This document shows, in pieces, positions 11,024 to 61,176 of a DNA stretch of 64,000 nt. Position numbers and translations under genes: made by a program. Below the pieces are notes generated by a model. It worked only from the letters and a program-made list of their open reading frames with translations. It was not told the DNA's origin and did no database searches. This DNA is from Pecten maximus. Lineage: Eukaryota. The stretch covers positions 40,486,001 to 40,550,000 of the forward strand of contig NC_047019.1 of NCBI RefSeq assembly GCF_902652985.1, in the 5' to 3' direction. How positions within the stretch are numbered: the first letter of the stretch is position 1; every line of letters starts with the position of its first letter.

Positions 11024-11325
11024 CTACTAACTGTATATTATTAAATAAGTTATCCCTAGCGCCGGGATTCGAACTACTAACTGTATATTATTAAATAAGT
11101 TATCCCTAGCGCCGGGATTCGAACTACTAACTGTATATTATTAAATAAGTTATCCCTAGCGCCGGGATTCGAACTACTAACTGTATATTATTAAATAAGT
11201 TATCCCTAGCGCCGGGATTCGAACTACTAACTGTATATTATTAAATAAGTTATCCCTAGCGCCGGGATTCGAACTACTAACTGTATATTATTAAATAAGT
11301 TATCCCTAGCGCCGGGATTCGAACC
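11024..11325 (-). repeat. 50-bp tandem repeat (6 copies) carrying a tRNA T-arm/B-box-like motif; probably an amplified SINE-head fragment
   Basis: Unit CTACTAACTGTATATTATTAAATAAGTTATCCCTAGCGCCGGGATTCGAA. The minus strand reads (G)GTTCGAATCCCGGC. Confidence 0.8.
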
Positions 11326-13696: not shown

Positions 13697-15672
13697 GAGA
13701 GCTCGGGTACACTCTGAGGAGATAGCTGATCAAGAACTTACAGGTACACTCTAAGAGATAGCTGATCTAGAACTTACAGGTACACTCTAAGAGATAGCTG
13801 ATCAAGAACTTACAGGTACACTCTAAGAGATAGCTGATCAAGAACTTACAGGTACACTCTAAGAGATAGCTGATCAAGTACTTACATGTACATTCTAAGA
13901 GATAGCTGATCAAGAACTTACAGGAACATTCTAAGAGATAGCTGATCAAGAACTTACAGGTACACTCTAAGAGATAGCTGATCAAGAACTTACAGGAACA
14001 TTCTAAGAGATAGCTGATCAAGAACTTACAGGTACACTCTAAGAGATAGCTGATCAAGAACTTACATGTACAGTCTAAGAGATAGCTGATCAAGAACTTA
14101 CATGTACAGTCTAAGAGATAGCTGATCAAGAACTTACAGGTACACTCTAAGAGATAGCTGATCAAGAACTTACAAGTACATTCTAAGAGATAGCTGATCA
14201 AGAGTTTATAGGAACATTCTAAGAGATAGCTGATCAAGATTTTATAGGAACATTCTAAGAGATAGCTGATCAAGAACTTACAGGTACACTCTAAGAGAAA
14301 GCTGATCAAGAACTTAAGGTACATTCTAAGAGATAGCTGATCAAGGACTTACAGGTACATTCTAAGAGATAGCTGATCAAGAACTTACAGGTACATTCTA
14401 AGAGATAGCTGATCAAGAACTTACATGTACAGTCTAAGAGATAGCTGATCAAGAACTTACAGGTTCACTCTAAGAGATAGCTGATCAAGAACTTACAGGT
14501 GCACTCTAAGAGATAGCTGATCAAGAACTTACAAGTACATTCTAAGAGATAGCTGATCAAGAGTTTATAGGAACATTCTAAGAGATAGCTGATCAAGATT
14601 TTATAGGAACATTCTAAGAGATAGCTGATCAAGAACTTACAGGTACACTCTAAGAGAAAGCTGATCAAGAACTTAAGGTATATTCTAAGAGATAGCTGAT
14701 CAAGGACTTACAGGTACACTCTAAGAGATAGCTGATCAAGAACTTACAGGTACACTCTAAGAGATAGCTGATCAAGAACATACAGGTACACTCTAAGAGA
14801 TAGCTGATCAAGAACTTAAGGTACATTCTAAGAGATAGCTGATCAAGAGTTTATAGGAACATTCTAAGAGATAGCTGATCAAGAGTTTATAGGAACATTC
14901 TAAGAGATAGCTGATCAAGAGTTTATAGGAACATTCTAAGAGATAGCTGATCAAGATTTTATAGGAACATTCTAAGAGATAGCTGATCAAGAGTTTATAG
15001 GAACATTCTAAGAGATAGCTGATCAAGAGTTTATAGGAACATTCTAAGAGATAGCTGATCAAGATTTTATAGGAACATTCTAAGAGATAGCTGATCAAGA
15101 ACTTACAGGTACACTCTAAGAGAAAGCTGATCAAGAACTTAAGGTATATTCTAAGAGATAGCTGATCAAGGACTTACAGGTACACTCTAAGAGATAGCTG
15201 ATCAAGAACTTACAGGTACACTCTAAGAGATAGCTGATCTAGAACTTACAGGTACATTCTAAGAGATAGCTGATCAAGAGTTTATAGGAACATTCTAAGA
15301 GATAGCTGATCAAGATTTTATAGGAACATTCTAAGAGATAGCTGATCAAGAACTTACAGGTACACTCTAAGAGAAAGCTGATCAAGAACTTAAGGTATAT
15401 TCTAAGAGATAGCTGATCAAGGACTTACAGGTACACTCTAAGAGATAGCTGATCAAGAACTTAAGGTATATTCTAAGAGATAGCTGATCAAGAACTTACA
15501 GGTACACTCTAAGAGATAGCTGATCAAGAACTTACAGGTACACTCTAAGAGATAGCTGATCAAGTACTTACAGGTACATTCTAAGAGATAGCTGATCAAG
15601 AACTTACAGGTACACTCTAAGAGATAGCTGATCAAGAACTTACAGGTACACTCTAAGAGATAGCTGATCAAG
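13697..15672. repeat. 36-bp minisatellite (~55 copies) with higher-order variant blocks
   Basis: Unit AAGAGATAGCTGATCAAGAACTTACAGGTACACTCT; gives spurious KFLISYLLECTC ORFs. Confidence 0.95.
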
Positions 15673-16317
15673 AGGGGCTTGAAGAGATGAGGACAGAAGA
15701 CTGTGATGCAGAAATAAAAACACGATGATGTGGGCTTTTACATCATAAACTTGTATAGTAATTAAGAGTGACTTAAAATCACCAATAACTTCTGAGGATA
15801 TTACAGACCGATCACCTCAAATCTATACCTCATCGACAACAACAAATGATGTTAAAAAGTTAAACAATGCACATTTGATGTATGGAAATACTCCATTAGA
15901 TTTAGAATTGTGGATAATTTTGGACGCCCCGACAGAATAAGTCATTAGATCCAAAACTGTACTAGTGTCTGAAATCGATTTAGAAATTACTGGAAAAAAT
16001 AGGGAGGAGGAATTCAATTACTTAGCCAGTTATAAATCACTATCTGAGCTAAAATTTAATGAAATATGTCAATTCTGTATAATGTATACCAGTAGTGATA
16101 TGGATATAGGTGCATTGTAATGTCTGCATCCATAAACAATGCTATTGTATCCTATTGTTACATGTGAAGGGTACTAAGTGATACAAGTATTACAAACAAG
16201 TACCAGGACATCACCTGTACAGGTGTAACATATTAATGAAACAAGTCTGATTAAAATTATGTCTGGAGATTTTATACCCTCCATGTAATGTATGGTACAG
16301 AAATAAAATGAGATATT

Positions 16318-18809: not shown

Positions 18810-36133
<17,324 letters not shown>

Positions 36134-40419: not shown

Positions 40420-42122
40420 GAATTAGATATTCAGTTCACAAGACACATATTAAAGTCGGAAAATCAAGGTCAAGGTTATTAGTTCCAAATGTCAAGGTCA
40501 AATTTTGTATCTTTTCACTTATTATTTTGTTATTCCTAAAGTAATCGGGTAAAAGATCAATATCAAATTATGTATCTTTCCACTATTGAAGATTTTGTTA
40601 CAACATGGGCAAAATTAAACGAGGAGTCAGCTCACCAAAGGTCAAGGTTAAATGTATCTTTCACTAATTAACATTATAACTTGCATGGTCCTTTGTGCCA
40701 AGTGAGCTTTATGCTGTGGTGTGGACTTGGTCATCCATCTTGCATCCATTATTGCATCGCCTGCAAAAAGCATTCAACATGTATAAGTATTGCTATGTCG
40801 GCAGCATCGTCTGTACAGTTTTCTGTGCGTTAACTTCAGTTCCCTTGGGCCAATCAAACTCGAATTCCCTTGGGCCAATCAAACTCAAATTTCATGCAGA
40901 TCTTCCCTACCAAAAATGCTTGCTTGGGACTGCTTTTAGCTTACTAAAAATACAAAATTTGTTTCCATGCAGTAACTCGAGTGCCCTTGGGCCCATCAGA
41001 TTCAATTTTCATGCAGTTTTTCCTTTCCCCAAGTGTTTTTTTCACTGGTGGAAAGGTCAAGGTGGCATATCAAACAATTTCTATGCAGTTTTTAGCCCAC
41101 CATCTTATGACTTTCAAATCGCTGTGCAAGGAATACTCTTAAAACTTTATGTGAAGGTTCCACATTTGTCTCTTAATTGTGCCAATTGAATTTTGAATTT
41201 CAATAGGAGAAACAAAAGGCCAACATGCAGCAATCTTGGAATTGTTATCGCTACTTAAAGTACAGAAGGGGTGTTTCTAAACTTAACATATAGGTTCCAC
41301 ATGTTCATGTTATCAGATTACTCGGGGGGGGGGGGGGAAACAGAAGAGAGAAGAGTCTGACAGAATCAATAGAGATCGTTCAGGGGTGGGCACCAAGATC
41401 TCTTTCCTTACCACAAGTGTTTTTTACTGGTCCAATGGTGAATAGGTCAAGGTCACTTACAAAAACTAGAAATTGGTTTGTGATAACTCGGAAGTTCCAT
41501 TTGGTTCAAATTGCTACTAGTAAAAAAATTCTTGTTGGATTTTGACCAATAGGGGAAATAGTGGTAATTCCTTTAAGTCGCTACTAGTCATAAGGTTATG
41601 AATGCATGTTGTAAACTTGGAGAGTCTTGACTTCATTATTTCTTTAAAGCAGTTGGGATCCCCACACTATAACCATATATACAACAATGTAGCATTGTTT
41701 GAGGTTAACAAAGAAAAAGAATTGAACATGAACATTATTTTGACATTTGGTCAAATCCAACCAGGTGAGTGATACAGGCCCCATGGGCCTCTTGTTCCTT
41801 GCCAAAAGATGATCTTTACTGGTCCAAATGTCAAGGTCACTAATAATAAATAGAAAATCTGTTTCCGTGCAATAACTCTTGTAATCGCCCTACTTTGGCG
41901 CAGGTGACACATCCACTTCTTTTTCCATTTGTAAACATCTTATATTTGGCTGATAGGTTCCTAGGATGGATTCCCAAATTCAAAGTCGCATGGGTCTTGT
42001 TTATCAAAATATTCAAACAACTCCTCACAAACTGTAGATTCAAGCTTTGACTAAATGAAAGGCAGAGAAATAGCAAACCAGTGAGAACCAGGTGAGCCAT
42101 GCAGACTCACTGGGCCTCTTGC
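40420..42122 (+). mobile_element. Cluster of degraded HINE-like elements
   Basis: Multiple TCAAGGTCA cores and termini CCAGGTGAGTGATACAGGCCCCATGGGCCTCTTGTT (~41761-41797) and CCAGGTGAGCC...GGGCCTCTTG (~42088-42121). Confidence 0.5.
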
Positions 42123-43350
42123 TTATGGTGTTGTGAAGAACAGCTGATCAGAATTGTTGAACAAGTCAACTAACTGGAGTAAATATTAACCAAGTTTGAT
42201 GAAACTAATGTAGCCATATAACAACATCTCGTGACCAGTTTGAAAATGGGAATTATTCACAGAGTTATTGCCCTTTGTAATAATATTATTAACAATGTTT
42301 TAGCTAACCTTGCCCTAAAGGTCTTGATGCTTTATTGAGCAAAGGAGATCTAGTATATAAATTGAGGAAAATCCTTAAAATCCCTACGACATGTAGTTCT
42401 GATTTAATTTGGTCTGGAGAAATTTTGGGCAATGGAAACCCCTGAGCCCAATAGGGGAAATTGAGGTAAGTAAACCTACTACTGGGGCATTATTTGGCAA
42501 ATAAGATGTTGTATAAATGAAGGATGTGGCACTCTTGGGGTAGGAGAAAGGGTGCCCAATCGGGGAAATTTAGCAAGAAAAACCCCCAAAAAACCTTTAA
42601 AAATACTTTTTTATGAATGAAAGGATTAAGTCCCCTGTTAAGTTTGAATCATTGTTGGGAGAGGCATTTCGAAAGCAGGATGTAGCTGAAATATCCAGTT
42701 GAGCGATGCAGGGCCTCTTGTATAAGGTATAATTTGCTTCCTTGCAATTGTCTTTGATTTTCAAATGTCTGGTATCAATGTCATGTTCTTGGATACAAAA
42801 AAAGTTTGGTTTGGTTTGGCTTGGCATTAATGTCCTATTAAATGCTATGGTCATTTAAGGGTGGCCTCTCCTGTGTGAATGCATGTGTAACAAAGCGTAG
42901 AATAAATTAAATTTAAATCACTGTCTCTGCTAGGGATCGGACGTGGGACCTCTGGCTTACTAGTCTTACGCTCAACCGATTGAGCTAAAGAGAAGATCTC
43001 TCTAGCTGAGCGGTATATTGCAGCTAGTATTTACCAGGGTTACATACTCCCCCTCCAGGAAAGAGCTCGTCCTCGAGTTTCCAGGGGTAACAGCGATGCT
43101 TTCGCAAGCAGCGATGAGTATCATTCCCGAGTCCCTACATGGGCGCCAATGTAACAAAGCGCAGGATAGATATAATTCAAATCACTGCCTCCGCTAGGGA
43201 TCGAACCCAGGACCTCTGGCTTAATAGTCTTGTGCTCAACCGATTGAGCTAAAGAGAAGATCTCTAGCCGAGCGGTATATTGCGGCTGATATTTACCAGG
43301 GTTACATACTCCCCCTCCAGGAATTAAGAGCTCATCCTCGAGTTTCCAGG

Positions 43351-44512
43351 TGTAGCACAGTGTTTGTTTGCTATAGTATAATGCAATACATTGTGTTAAT
43401 CCGCTAATCCGCGCTCCGCATCGTTGGCGCTCAGAATCTTGTTAAATTATGTATGTTCCTACGATCCGCACTCCGTACCGCTGTACACGCGATGTCACGT
43501 GATTGCTACTTTCGTTTTAGCTATGTAAGTTATTGTGTGATGTAATGTTTGTGTATCTGTCAATCATGTTGTCTCGTGACTGGACTGACTGACCACGGAC
43601 ACCTCATGCGTCATGACTTGGGCGCATTTCTTTTCCCGCCGTCTTCCCTTCTTTCTTTCTCTCGACTCTCTCTCTACCGCACTTCTCAGCCAGACGTGGA
43701 GCTGTCCACATCTACGGTCTCTGGCCATGGTTACGAAACCACTATAGCTATCCTATTTTGTCTGCACTTTGTGCCGGGTCCCCAGCACCATATGCAGGGT
43801 GAGTACACTGAGTACAGCTAGTGATATTTTGTTAATTATTGCTATTATATTCTATAGGATTTTTATATATTTTATATCAAATAATGCCGTATCGGTTATT
43901 ATTGTACTTTCTAATAATTCTGGGCCGAAGCTAGATATAGTTTCAGTACATTCCATAGCCAGTTTATATATATATTCCTAACTATCCTTATTAGCTAGAC
44001 CAGTTAATATATATTGCTAAACCGGGTAATAATTCAGCCAGTGTGCGCGGGTATGTAAGTCCGTGTGAAAGCTACGCTAGTGTTTTGTATGTGTGTATTG
44101 TCTATAAGTCAGGTGCGTTCGTGTACGAAGTTCGTTTATATATATTTATATTTTTAACATTGCAGGGACCATATTTGATATTAATAAAAGTAACAGAACC
44201 GACGAACGTTTTGGTCATGTCATCATTGCAAAAGAACCCTAACACCACATTGGCGCCCATGTAGGGACCCGGGGGAAATACTCAGGATTGCTCCACAAGC
44301 ATCGCTGTAACTCCTGGAAACTCGAGGACGAGTGCTATCCTGGAGGGGGAGTATGTAACCCTGGTAAATACTAGCCGCAATATACCGCTCGGCTAGAGAG
44401 ATCTTCTCTTTAGCTCGATCGGTTGAGCGTAAGACTAGTAAGCCAGAGGTCCCGGGTTCGATCCCTAGCGGAGGCAGTGATTTAAATTTAATTAATCATG
44501 TGCTCTGTTACA
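43351..44512 (+). mobile_element. Chimeric LTR element: 899-bp foreign 5' LTR + PBS + TRIM internal region + PPT + 159-bp tRNA-containing 3' LTR, 4-bp TSD CAGG
   Basis: TGTAGC...CCACA at 43351-44249 with AATAAA at 44183. PBS TGGCGCCCATGTAGGGAC at 44251-44268. PPT GGAGGGGGAGTA at 44342-44353. LTR at 44354-44512. CAGG at 43347-43350 and 44513-44516. The host internal sequence (CCAGG|GGTAACAGCGATGCTT) resumes exactly after the TSD. Confidence 0.88.
44404..44476 (+). other. tRNA-Thr(AGT)-like sequence inside the TRIM LTR (Pol III type-2 promoter; not a functional tRNA)
   Basis: A box TAGCTCGATCGG at 44411-44422, anticodon loop CT-AGT-AA at 44435-44441, B box GGTTCGATCCC at 44455-44465. The anticodon stem does not pair well. 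Confidence 0.75.
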
Positions 44513-45987
44513 CAGGGGTAACAGCGATGCTTCCTCCGCTAGGGATCGAACCCATGACCTCTGGCTTACTAGTCTTGCTCAACTGATCGAGCTAAAGAGA
44601 AGATCTCTCTAGCCGAGCGGTATATTGTGGCTAGTATTTACCAGGTTACACATGTAGTTTATGTGTGTTTTGGGAGGCTGTAATATATTTGTTTTGTGAT
44701 ACCGTGAAACTTGACAGTTATGGGTCATATATATATCACGATGGGGGCGCTTGCTGACCTGTTCATGTTCGAGTTCAGTTTGCTTTAAATACAAAATTTT
44801 AAATCGGGTAAAGTCAAGGATGCTACACTGCCGTCACTGTACTCTGCTTCTGACAAAAATACACAAAATATATCACATGTATAGAAATATATCGAACACC
44901 ATCACTAGCAAATGAAAAATAAGAAAAGATTGATAGTTCCATACAAAATGTAGCGGTGGAGCAAACTTTACTTCTTCAAGATGTAATTATTTATCCACTA
45001 AATTTAAACAAAATCTTTTTAGAGACTTAAACTTTTGGATATATACATGTACAAGGTAATCATGTAACTTGTTCAATCATAGCTCTTTGTCTGAGATGTA
45101 CATAAGTCAGAACAGTCTGTAAGTCATTCCTACTGTACATGTGGTATAGAAGGGTACCGTAATAAAGTCGGGTCTTGAAATTTTTATGCTGCGTCCTGTC
45201 CCGTCCTGATGCAATGTAACTAAATAATCTCAGGAACTGCTGATGCTATCCTAACCAAACTGTGTTTTGGGATGTCAAGTGGCAGCGGGGGCATTTAGTT
45301 CTAGTTTCTAGTTCAGTTCTGTGAGACAATATGAAAACAAAGGGGCAAACAATTTCAACATTTTATTTAAAATATACAAAGCTAGACTTCACAGTAATTA
45401 AATGACAATTGACAAAAAAAATAAATACAAGTAATAAAAAATATTTTACTAGTAACTTGATGCAATCTGCCCACCTTTTATGTATTTTAGGAAAAGTTCA
45501 CTTTCAAAGTACTGTTATGATACAACTCGAGACACCGTCTTAGAATGTTCAACAGATAACTAATTCAATACTTGTATGGGTAAAAACCAATTTTCAACCA
45601 AGTCATTTTTAGTATGAAATCCACATACAACAAGTTGTAGAATTCTTATACACAACAAAATGCAAGATGTCAACTAAGATCTATGCAAATAAACAACCAA
45701 CATCATAACAATGAATGTGATCAAACCTTCTCATTCAAGGTAAATTAAATAACATACTTGGTAAAAATGTAAAAAAAAAAAACATCTTGCACTCCTCATC
45801 ATAATAATAACATGAACTTACATACATATATACATATTTAACAATTAAAACGTTATTTAAATCAAAATTTCATATAAATCAGTAACTGCAGGTGAAGTTA
45901 GTCTTTAATTACGATACCAGTAGAGACTATACACAAGATGAAATGAATGTACTACATTTGTAGTAATTTACTACCTACCCATAGTAA

Positions 45988-46245
45988 CAGAGGGTTTCTA
46001 CATGCACAATTTAAACATAACAGTTTGAGGGTTTCTGGATAGATGAACATGCACAGTCCTTGATTTAAACATTAACAGTGTGATGGTTTCTGGATATATG
46101 AACATGCACAGTCCTTGATTTAAACATTAACAGTGTGAGGGTTTCTGGATAGATAACCATACACAGTCCTTCAATTTTAACATTAACACTGTTGGTAGGG
46201 TTTCTGGATAGAAGAACATTACATAGTCCTTCAATTTAAACATAT
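45988..46245. repeat. Degenerate ~55-60-bp tandem repeat (4-5 copies) in the probable 3' UTR of the CPRAS1-like gene
   Basis: GGGTTTCTGGATAGATGAACATGCACAGTCCTTGATTTAAACATTAACAGTGTGA. Confidence 0.8.
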
Positions 46246-60384: not shown

Positions 60385-61176
60385 CAAGGTCTAGTCCCTT
60401 ACCTAGCATGGCCGGTCTCTACATCCAAGTACCAGGTCTAGGGTCTCGCTTATCTAGCATGGCTGGTCTCTACATCCAAGTACCAGACCTAGGGTCTCAC
60501 TTACCTAGCATGGCCGGTCTCTACATCCAAGTACCAGACCTAGTGTCTCGCTTATCTAGCATGGCCGGTCTCTACATCTAAGTACCAGGTCTAGGATCCC
60601 CCTTACCTAGCATGGCCGGTCTCTACATCCAAGTACCAGGTCTAGGATCCCCCTTACCTAGCATGGCCGGTCTCTACATCCAAGTACCAGACCTAGGGTC
60701 TCACTTATCTAGCATGGCTGGTCTCTACATCCAAGTACCAGACCTAGGGTCTCGCTTATCTAGCATGGCCGGTCTCTACATCCAAGTACCAGGTCTAGGA
60801 TCCCCCTTACCTAGCATGGCAGGTCTCTACATCCAAGTACCAGACCTAGGGTCTCACTTACCTAGCATGGCCGGTCTCTACATCCAAGTACCAGACCTAG
60901 TGTCTCACTTACCTAGCATGGCTGGTCTCTACATCCAAGTACCAGACCTAGGGTCTCGCTTATCTAGCATGGCTGGTCTCTACATCCAAGTACCAGACCT
61001 AGGGTCTCGCTTATCTAGCATGGCTGGTCTCTACATCCAAGTACCAGGTCTAGGGTCTTCCTTACCTAGCATATGGCTGGTCTCTACATCCAAGTACCAG
61101 ACCTAGGGTATCCCTTACCTAGCATGGCCGGTCTCTACATCCAAGTACCAGACCTCAGGTCTCCCTTACCTAGCAT
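60385..61176. repeat. 51-bp minisatellite (~15 copies), with decayed copies out to ~62300
   Basis: Unit CTAGCATGGCCGGTCTCTACATCCAAGTACCAGACCTAGGGTCTCACTTAC; source of the MAGLYIQVPDLGS ORFs. Confidence 0.92.

What the first reader, a model, noticed from the sequence alone, without database searches (positions are those of the whole stretch)
42882..44654. Tandem miniature LTR retrotransposon driven by a tRNA-derived Pol III promoter
Seen: a 264-bp unit made of a 159-bp TG...CA LTR containing tRNA-Thr(AGT)-like A and B boxes plus a ~105-bp internal region holding only a PBS and a PPT. Three LTRs and two internal regions share one CATG TSD, so the array occupies a single integration site. The sense strand has no run of four T in the whole unit despite the AT-rich genome, as expected if Pol III must read through to the next LTR. 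This matches the Cassandra-like class of Pol III TRIMs (Helenus/TRIMp3, recalled from the literature). The array appears to have landed in the tail of an older SINE-like repeat ((TTTGG)n at ~42805).
Basis: partly seen in the sequence, partly recalled or inferred. Interest (0 to 1): 0.7.

Follow-up and report, generated by a model that had tools for sequence, protein, structure and literature searches.

The report
Mini-retrotransposon fused to its helpers' ends
This is a copy of a small, gene-less jumping element already catalogued in scallops, but inside it sits a second insertion whose two ends come from different elements; at least 17 such hybrids occur in the genome, and they likely formed while the small element was being copied inside larger retrotransposons' particles, which would reveal the helpers it depends on.

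Summary
The 264-bp unit is real and known: it is Helenus-1_PeMa (Kojima 2024; 1 difference in 105 and 1 in 159 bases). This scan met the family before in this genome. The array lies on the minus strand under a CATG duplication, but its 5' LTR and second PBS have lost 86 bp, and an opposite-strand 1162-bp insertion (43351-44512, CAGG duplication) splits the second internal region. That insertion is a hybrid: an 899-bp Gypsy LTR, then Helenus PBS, internal region, PPT and Helenus LTR. Genome-wide, at least 17 of 201 Helenus-1 PBS starts follow a foreign LTR, from nine LTR families; 10 of 11 testable ones share one 4-bp duplication. Head-to-head fusions at a near-palindromic LTR-end/PBS and end-to-end fusions also occur. 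The primer matches host tRNA-Lys(TTT) 18/18. Best explanation (0.7): Helenus RNA is copied in Gypsy particles, and the helper's plus-strand strong-stop DNA sometimes pairs with the Helenus PBS. This names candidate helpers, which Kojima could infer only from PBS likeness. T4 absence is not significant (P 0.34-0.68), and Pol III transcription is untested.

The parts
42806..42881 (-). 3' tail of an older SINE-like repeat ((CCAAA)n end) into which the array inserted; continues at 44655 onward
   Evidence: uninterrupted homologue L152; SINE versus LINE tail not determined
42882..42885 (.). left target-site duplication CATG of the array
42886..43044 (-). Helenus LTR L1 (3' LTR of the array, 159 bp; B box decayed)
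   Evidence: 7.5% from nearest of 54 young LTR copies
43045..43149 (-). Helenus internal region I1 (105 bp; PBS 43131-43148, PPT 43047-43056)
   Evidence: 1 difference from Helenus-1_PeMa-I (by eye)
43150..43306 (-). Helenus LTR L2 (middle, 157 bp)
   Evidence: Rfam tRNA 25.7 bits, below the 29-bit cut-off, at 43186-43258
43307..43350 (-). 3' part of second internal region with PPT; includes left CAGG duplication 43347-43350
43351..44249 (+). Gypsy-family LTR 'X' (899 bp, TG..CA), 5' end of the nested hybrid insertion
   Evidence: solo copies with their own 4-bp TSDs and a two-LTR element with gag, RT and integrase pieces elsewhere
43799..44165 (+). GT-AG intron inside LTR X; other copies lack it exactly
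44250..44353 (+). Helenus internal region of the hybrid (PBS 44251-44268, 18/18 complementary to host tRNA-Lys(TTT); PPT 44342-44351)
44354..44512 (+). Helenus LTR L4, 3' end of the hybrid (A box 44411-44422, AGT 44437-44439, B box 44455-44465)
   Evidence: 1 difference from Helenus-1_PeMa-LTR (by eye); 0.6% from nearest young copy
44513..44516 (.). right target-site duplication CAGG of the nested hybrid
   Evidence: covered with 0 mismatches by contigs of two samples
44517..44532 (-). remnant of second internal region, up to an 86-bp deletion junction
44533..44650 (-). Helenus LTR L3 (5' LTR of the array, last 38 nt deleted)
44651..44654 (.). right target-site duplication CATG of the array

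Best explanation
The stretch is a decayed three-LTR Helenus-1 array interrupted by a younger single insertion with a Gypsy LTR at one end and a Helenus LTR at the other, which likely formed when Helenus RNA was copied in a Gypsy particle and the Gypsy plus-strand strong-stop DNA paired with the Helenus primer-binding site. Shown: the anatomy, the single 4-bp duplication around two unrelated ends, the recurrence of such hybrids with nine LTR families, the shared tRNA-Lys(TTT) PBS in the six families whose own PBS was seen. Inferred: Pol III transcription from the tRNA-like boxes; co-packaging; transfer of a PBS-bearing plus strand to the other template; integration of the mixed ends by Gypsy integrase. 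The same pairing between two Helenus molecules would give the shared-LTR tandem, and pairing of two plus strands through the near-palindrome at LTR end plus PBS would give the head-to-head fusions.
For: The interrupted internal region is complete on both sides of CAGG, so no target sequence was lost. At least 17 of 201 exact Helenus-1 PBS-internal starts follow a foreign LTR. TSD matches in 10 of 11 testable, and in 5 of 5 simple [foreign LTR][internal][Helenus LTR] cases; chance about 0.005 each. The join falls at the LTR end/PBS in all 17. In 3 hybrids the 1-2 nt spacer before the PBS is the partner's, not the usual Helenus T (Z: A; U: TT twice). Partners X, Y, Z, W, U, S, R sit in elements with Gypsy RT or integrase sequence, 52-95% identical to a Y copy. 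Y-family LTR pairs differ at 0-2 of 671 sites and Helenus monomer LTR pairs at 0-9 of about 159 (12 of 23 pairs at 0-1), so both moved recently. Several hybrid LTRs are intron-less versions, which points to passage through RNA. LTR end plus PBS is a 14/16 palindrome; head-to-head fusions join exactly there, both resolutions of the mismatches occur, and 2 of 3 testable share a TSD. PBS-bearing plus-strand strong-stop DNA accumulates in Ty3 particles (PMC5371799, passages).
Against: In the window hybrid the spacer is T (Helenus type) while the only other X copy with a PBS has A; one U hybrid has A, matching neither, and some plain Helenus copies have A too. The one S-family copy with a PBS-like sequence has a different one, and S and R share 8 terminal bases with the Helenus LTR, so those joins may lie in the LTR end. 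Native PBS not seen for T and R; no coding partner examined for T; V only through a PPT, a PBS and an unclassified ORF. End-to-end joins (L056, L219) need DNA end joining, not strand transfer. 3 of 17 composites lack a matching TSD (L193/194 and L089 differ at one base, L207 at two). Simple hybrids could be solo-LTR remnants of larger composites. No RNA, particle or Pol III data were obtained.
Confidence: 0.7

Rival explanations
1. Hybrids form by recombination or end joining between unintegrated cDNAs made in separate particles, meeting in the nucleus at the 12-18 bp shared PBS, and are then integrated as one molecule.
For: End-to-end joins with one TSD (L056: LTR end + TA + Helenus start; L219), Helenus-type spacer in the window hybrid, nine partner families, S copy with a different PBS.
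Against: 12-18 bp is short for homologous recombination; joins are at the PBS in 17 of 17; head-to-head joins at the palindrome are most simply made by single-stranded plus strands. Even here the partner must be retrotransposing in the same cell at the same time.
Confidence: 0.18
2. Hybrids arise after integration, by deletion or gene conversion between neighbouring or nested Helenus and Gypsy copies.
For: Nested and rearranged copies are common here (L138, L029, L143); post-integration recombination is the usual explanation of multi-LTR TRIMs (PMC4079214, passages). LTR-LTR recombination can trim a larger composite to the simple form.
Against: Two independent insertions would not share one TSD; 10 of 11 do. 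In the window the pre-insertion sequence is known and intact.
Confidence: 0.08
3. The hybrid is an assembly misjoin between repeats at the shared PBS.
For: No listed contig bridged the X-PBS junction or the left CAGG junction (tables cut); the laid samples differ from the window's X copy at many sites.
Against: Contigs of two samples from two studies cover Helenus LTR end, CAGG and the private deletion junction with 0 mismatches (28 letters left of the TSD junction, just under the tool's 31; one sample may be the assembly source). Misjoins would not restore matching TSDs at 10 loci.
Confidence: 0.04

Closest known systems
Helenus-1_PeMa (Kojima 2024, PMC10886601; main text parts 1-4 of 6, supplement passages and part 10 read)
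   Same: LTR and internal region match at 158/159 and 104/105; 4-bp TSD; tRNA-like A and B boxes; tandem arrays noted for another Helenus family; Gypsy helper proposed.
   Different: The parts read report no hybrid copies and no helper family for it; they infer Gypsy help from PBS likeness and say how the dependence is kept is not known. Fig. S2C aligns this PBS with a gap to Aplysia tRNA-Lys(CTT); the host's tRNA-Lys(TTT) matches 18/18.
Template-switching complexes of Triticeae, rice and maize (Sabot and Schulman 2007, PMC1950507; whole text read)
   Same: Composite LTR insertions under one TSD explained by co-packaged RNAs.
   Different: There the parents are of one family, the switch is at R and the outer LTRs end up alike; here the outer LTRs are unrelated, the join is at the PBS, and the frequency is at least 8% of copies against 2 in 400 insertions.
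Chimeric and tandem TRIMs of sugar beet (PMC13570524; passages) and multi-LTR Cassandra of pear (PMC4079214; passages)
   Same: Tandem TRIMs with TSDs; two TRIM-08 elements with LTRs donated by other TRIM families.
   Different: Donors there are other TRIMs; no TRIM-autonomous hybrid appears in the passages seen.
Ty1/Ty3 plus-strand strong-stop DNA (review PMC5371799; passages)
   Same: A PBS-bearing plus strand copying about 12 nt of tRNA accumulates in particles and is the proposed donor here.
   Different: In yeast it is described as a dead-end product; here it would be captured by a parasite's PBS and integrated.

Membership tests
Helenus (TRIM with tRNA-like LTR) | Two short TG..CA LTRs around a non-coding region, total under about 1.3 kb | tested here: met
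Helenus (TRIM with tRNA-like LTR) | tRNA-like sequence with A box (TRGCY..YGG) and B box (GGTTC) in the LTR | tested here: met
   B box decayed in L1
Helenus (TRIM with tRNA-like LTR) | PBS and PPT at the ends of the internal region | tested here: met
   PBS 18/18 to host tRNA-Lys(TTT); second PBS of the array deleted
Helenus (TRIM with tRNA-like LTR) | 4-bp TSD in animals | tested here: met
   CATG here; 20 of 24 complete monomers
Helenus-1_PeMa | Sequence identity to the published family | tested here: met
   compared by eye: 1/105 and 1/159 differences
TRIMp3 | Transcription by RNA polymerase III | not testable with these tools
   only contigs of RNA runs were offered; T4 test uninformative
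Functional tRNA gene | Cloverleaf called by tRNA finders | tested here: not met
   ARAGORN 0 genes; Rfam 25.7 < 29 bits; fold z +0.78 and -0.33
Gypsy LTR retrotransposon (source of LTR X) | LTR flanking gag and pol with RT-RNase H-integrase order, 4-bp TSD | tested here: met
   X element on C8: PNMA-type gag, RVT_1, rve in that order, TSD GCTA, broken by insertions; related Y copies carry PR-RT-RH-IN in one frame
Sabot-Schulman template-switching complex | Outer LTRs near-identical, parents of one family | tested here: not met
   X and the Helenus LTR show no BLAST similarity; outer array LTRs differ at 13 of 121 sites

The most novel reading that the evidence does not exclude
Helenus-1 is a generalist parasite of a whole set of Gypsy families: it shares no LTR or internal sequence with them, enters their particles, and offers a perfect 18-nt tRNA-Lys PBS that captures their plus-strand strong-stop DNA, so that one copy in twelve integrates with a helper's LTR as its left end. 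Such mismatched-end insertions are a genome-wide fossil record that pairs TRIMs with their helpers, and one PBS-pairing step would explain tandem, hybrid and head-to-head TRIM forms.
Probability: 0.55. Interest if true: 0.7.

Novelty: new variant of a known kind. Interest (0 to 1): 0.55.

Why it matters
For most TRIMs, including Cassandra and bivalve TRIMs, the autonomous helper is unknown because they share no sequence with it (PMC10886601; PMC6934838, passages). Insertions with one helper end and one TRIM end under a single TSD give a direct, countable link that any assembly can be screened for. LTR finders that require two like LTRs would miss them. They also indicate that an integrase accepts unrelated ends and that a Pol II LTR can be placed in front of a Pol III element. 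The family itself is not new.

Tried and rejected
T4 depletion as evidence for Pol III read-through: not significant; across 56 copies sense T4 in 4 and sense A4 in 40, but copies share ancestry. Functional tRNA: rejected. Plain three-LTR tandem: rejected. Laying contigs on 42400-45100 showed no listed empty allele and no bridge of the X-PBS junction; tables were cut, so this is uninformative. One search was meant to isolate odd upstream ends but mostly returned normal copies (152 hits, 100 listed). Two rows (L193/194, L219) picked a wrong right end and were redone. TSD not testable for 6 of the 17 PBS-joined hybrids (L141, L135 truncated; L132, L133, L144 left end not found; L138 rearranged) and for L028, L029. 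Paper searches for such hybrids returned nothing or only related work; they need several exact phrases, so absence is weak. Lauermann and Boeke 1997 is not held; known only through the review. Look-ups of earlier scan notes for hybrids or for LTR X found none.

Full report
What is there. Reading 41500-46000 and self-comparison show a Helenus-type array on the minus strand from 42886 to 44650, flanked by CATG on both sides. In element order it is L3 (44650-44533), a split second internal region, L2 (43306-43150), internal region I1 (43149-43045) and L1 (43044-42886). L3 has lost its last 38 nt together with 48 nt of internal region including the PBS. The second internal region is split by a 1162-bp plus-strand insertion, 43351-44512, with CAGG on both sides; removing one CAGG restores the family's internal sequence without loss. 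The array sits in an older repeat whose uninterrupted homologue reads across the site.

Identity of the unit. The supplement of Kojima 2024 (PMC10886601) holds Helenus-1_PeMa, which differs from I1 at 1 of 105 and from the nested LTR L4 at 1 of 159 positions (by eye). Of 24 complete monomers among the 30 best loci, 20 have a 4-bp TSD. The exact PBS-internal start occurs 201 times in the genome; 4 pairs 263-265 bp apart are among the first 100 listed, so tandems are a minority. Host tRNA-Lys(TTT) genes predict the PBS at 18 of 18; the paper aligned it with a gap to a sea-hare tRNA-Lys(CTT). The tRNA-like part is not called a tRNA. The AGT loop is present in L1, L3 and L4 and mutated in L2. Lack of T4 is expected by chance in 34-68% of shuffles. 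Pol III activity is therefore an inference from the boxes only.

The nested insertion. Its first 899 bp (X) are an LTR: solo copies elsewhere carry their own 4-bp TSDs, and a two-LTR element on C8 carries a Lys-type PBS and gag, RT and integrase pieces. X has no similarity to the Helenus LTR. It is followed directly by Helenus PBS, internal region, PPT and a complete Helenus LTR. So one integration event joined an X left end and a Helenus right end. L4 is 0.6% from its nearest of 54 young copies, while L1, L2 and L3 are 7.5%, 7.6% and 3.3% away, so the hybrid is younger than the array. Contigs of two samples from two studies cover 44485-44554 with no mismatch; they reach 28 letters left of the TSD junction, under the tool's 31-letter rule, and one sample may be the assembly's source. 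The X-PBS junction itself was not seen bridged.

It recurs. Of the 201 starts, 45 had an unusual base 12 nt upstream; 37 of them were read in context and 8 were classed from 12 letters only. Sixteen follow a foreign LTR, and a seventeenth (L193) came. Of the 152 returned, the 100 listed were Helenus-like but for one unclear case; 52 were not seen. So 17 of 201 (8.5%) is a lower bound. The foreign LTRs fall into nine families (X 1, Y 3, Z 1, W 4, U 3, V 2, R 1, S 1, T 1); only X and Y align with each other. Their RT or integrase regions, where examined, are 52-95% identical to a Y copy. Both outer ends could be read in 11, and 10 have matching 4-mers, against about 0.005 by chance for each. Five are simple foreign-LTR/internal/Helenus-LTR units, all 5 matching. 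For T the left end was first found by scanning for the 4-mer, then confirmed by solo T LTRs starting at the same base. The rest keep Gypsy internal sequence, bounded by two Gypsy ends (L067, L077/206, L193/194), two Helenus ends (L126/076, L069) or an inverted LTR (L143).

Other join types. The last 3 bases of the LTR plus the first 13 downstream form a 14/16 palindrome. Five loci join two LTRs head to head across exactly that stretch: Y with Helenus (L022, L029, L134), X with Helenus (L028) and Helenus with Helenus (L089). Both resolutions of the two mismatches occur, and TSDs match in L022 and L134 and differ by one base in L089. L056 joins a Y LTR, TA and a whole Helenus under CTAC; L219 joins a partial Z LTR to a whole Helenus under TAAA; L207 (W) has no match. 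In all, 14 of 17 composites tested share a TSD.

Mechanism. Established: LTR elements package two RNAs, and plus-strand synthesis copies part of the tRNA primer, giving an LTR plus PBS strand that accumulates in Ty3 particles (PMC6894440, PMC5371799; passages). Inferred: if Helenus RNA is copied in the same particle, that strand can pair with the PBS at the end of the Helenus minus strand. Extension gives helper LTR, Helenus internal region and Helenus LTR, which integrase inserts with a 4-bp duplication. The six partner families whose own PBS was seen (X, Y, Z, W, U, V) match the same tRNA over 12-18 nt, whereas Helenus matches 18. In three hybrids the spacer before the PBS is the partner's, placing the join inside the PBS. 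Against this, the window hybrid has the Helenus spacer while the one other X copy has A, one U hybrid matches neither, S appears to have another PBS, and end-to-end joins need DNA ligation. I put co-packaging with PBS transfer at 0.7, nuclear joining of free cDNAs at 0.18, post-integration events at 0.08 and artefact at 0.04.

Comparison and verdict. The element is known, and the scan has met tandem and monomer Helenus copies in this genome. Composite insertions under one TSD are known from grasses, but with like outer LTRs (PMC1950507, whole text), and TRIM-TRIM chimeras from sugar beet (PMC13570524, passages). I found no report of frequent TRIM-helper hybrids, a weak negative given strict phrase matching, the library's limits and Repbase entries that I could not see. 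The hybrids make the open question of Helenus helpers directly testable, hence 0.55.

Noticed in passing
window 43799-44165; L007, L008, L028 (X); L015, L060, L072 (Y); L102 vs L133 (V); L217, L204, L230 (Z, U, S): LTRs of at least six Gypsy families contain one or two GT-AG introns, and copies with the introns cleanly removed exist, in L072 in both LTRs. One paper search found nothing.
   Followed up: partly
L093-L095 (C9) and contigs C400, C401: Tandem clusters of tRNA-Lys(TTT), -Gln(CTG) and -Arg(TCT) genes; the Lys(TTT) genes come in two variants (A or G in the acceptor stem) mirrored by the two Helenus PBS variants.
   Followed up: partly
window 44431-44477 and 44530-44576; 42884-43101 and 44297-44514: The opposite-strand insertion creates long inverted repeats; L3 is less diverged than L1 and L2, perhaps by conversion from L4 or because the array joined templates of different age.
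   Followed up: no
L130 (C16) Helenus 3' LTR: A tRNA-headed SINE-like repeat with a (CCAAA)n tail like the window's host repeat is inserted in a Helenus LTR.
   Followed up: no
L111 965-1345: The first 66 bp of the Helenus LTR are amplified six times as a minisatellite ahead of a copy.
   Followed up: no
L038 23-76 and 275-328: Matches to another tRNA-LTR family resembling Helenus-2_PeMa near a Helenus-1 tandem.
   Followed up: no
W-family LTRs (L179-L191): All copies read end in TA rather than CA yet have clean 4-bp TSDs.
   Followed up: partly
window 11024-11324, 13706-15673, 23475-24839, 60395-61176: Many minisatellites; the 50-bp unit at 11024 holds a B-box-like motif.
   Followed up: no
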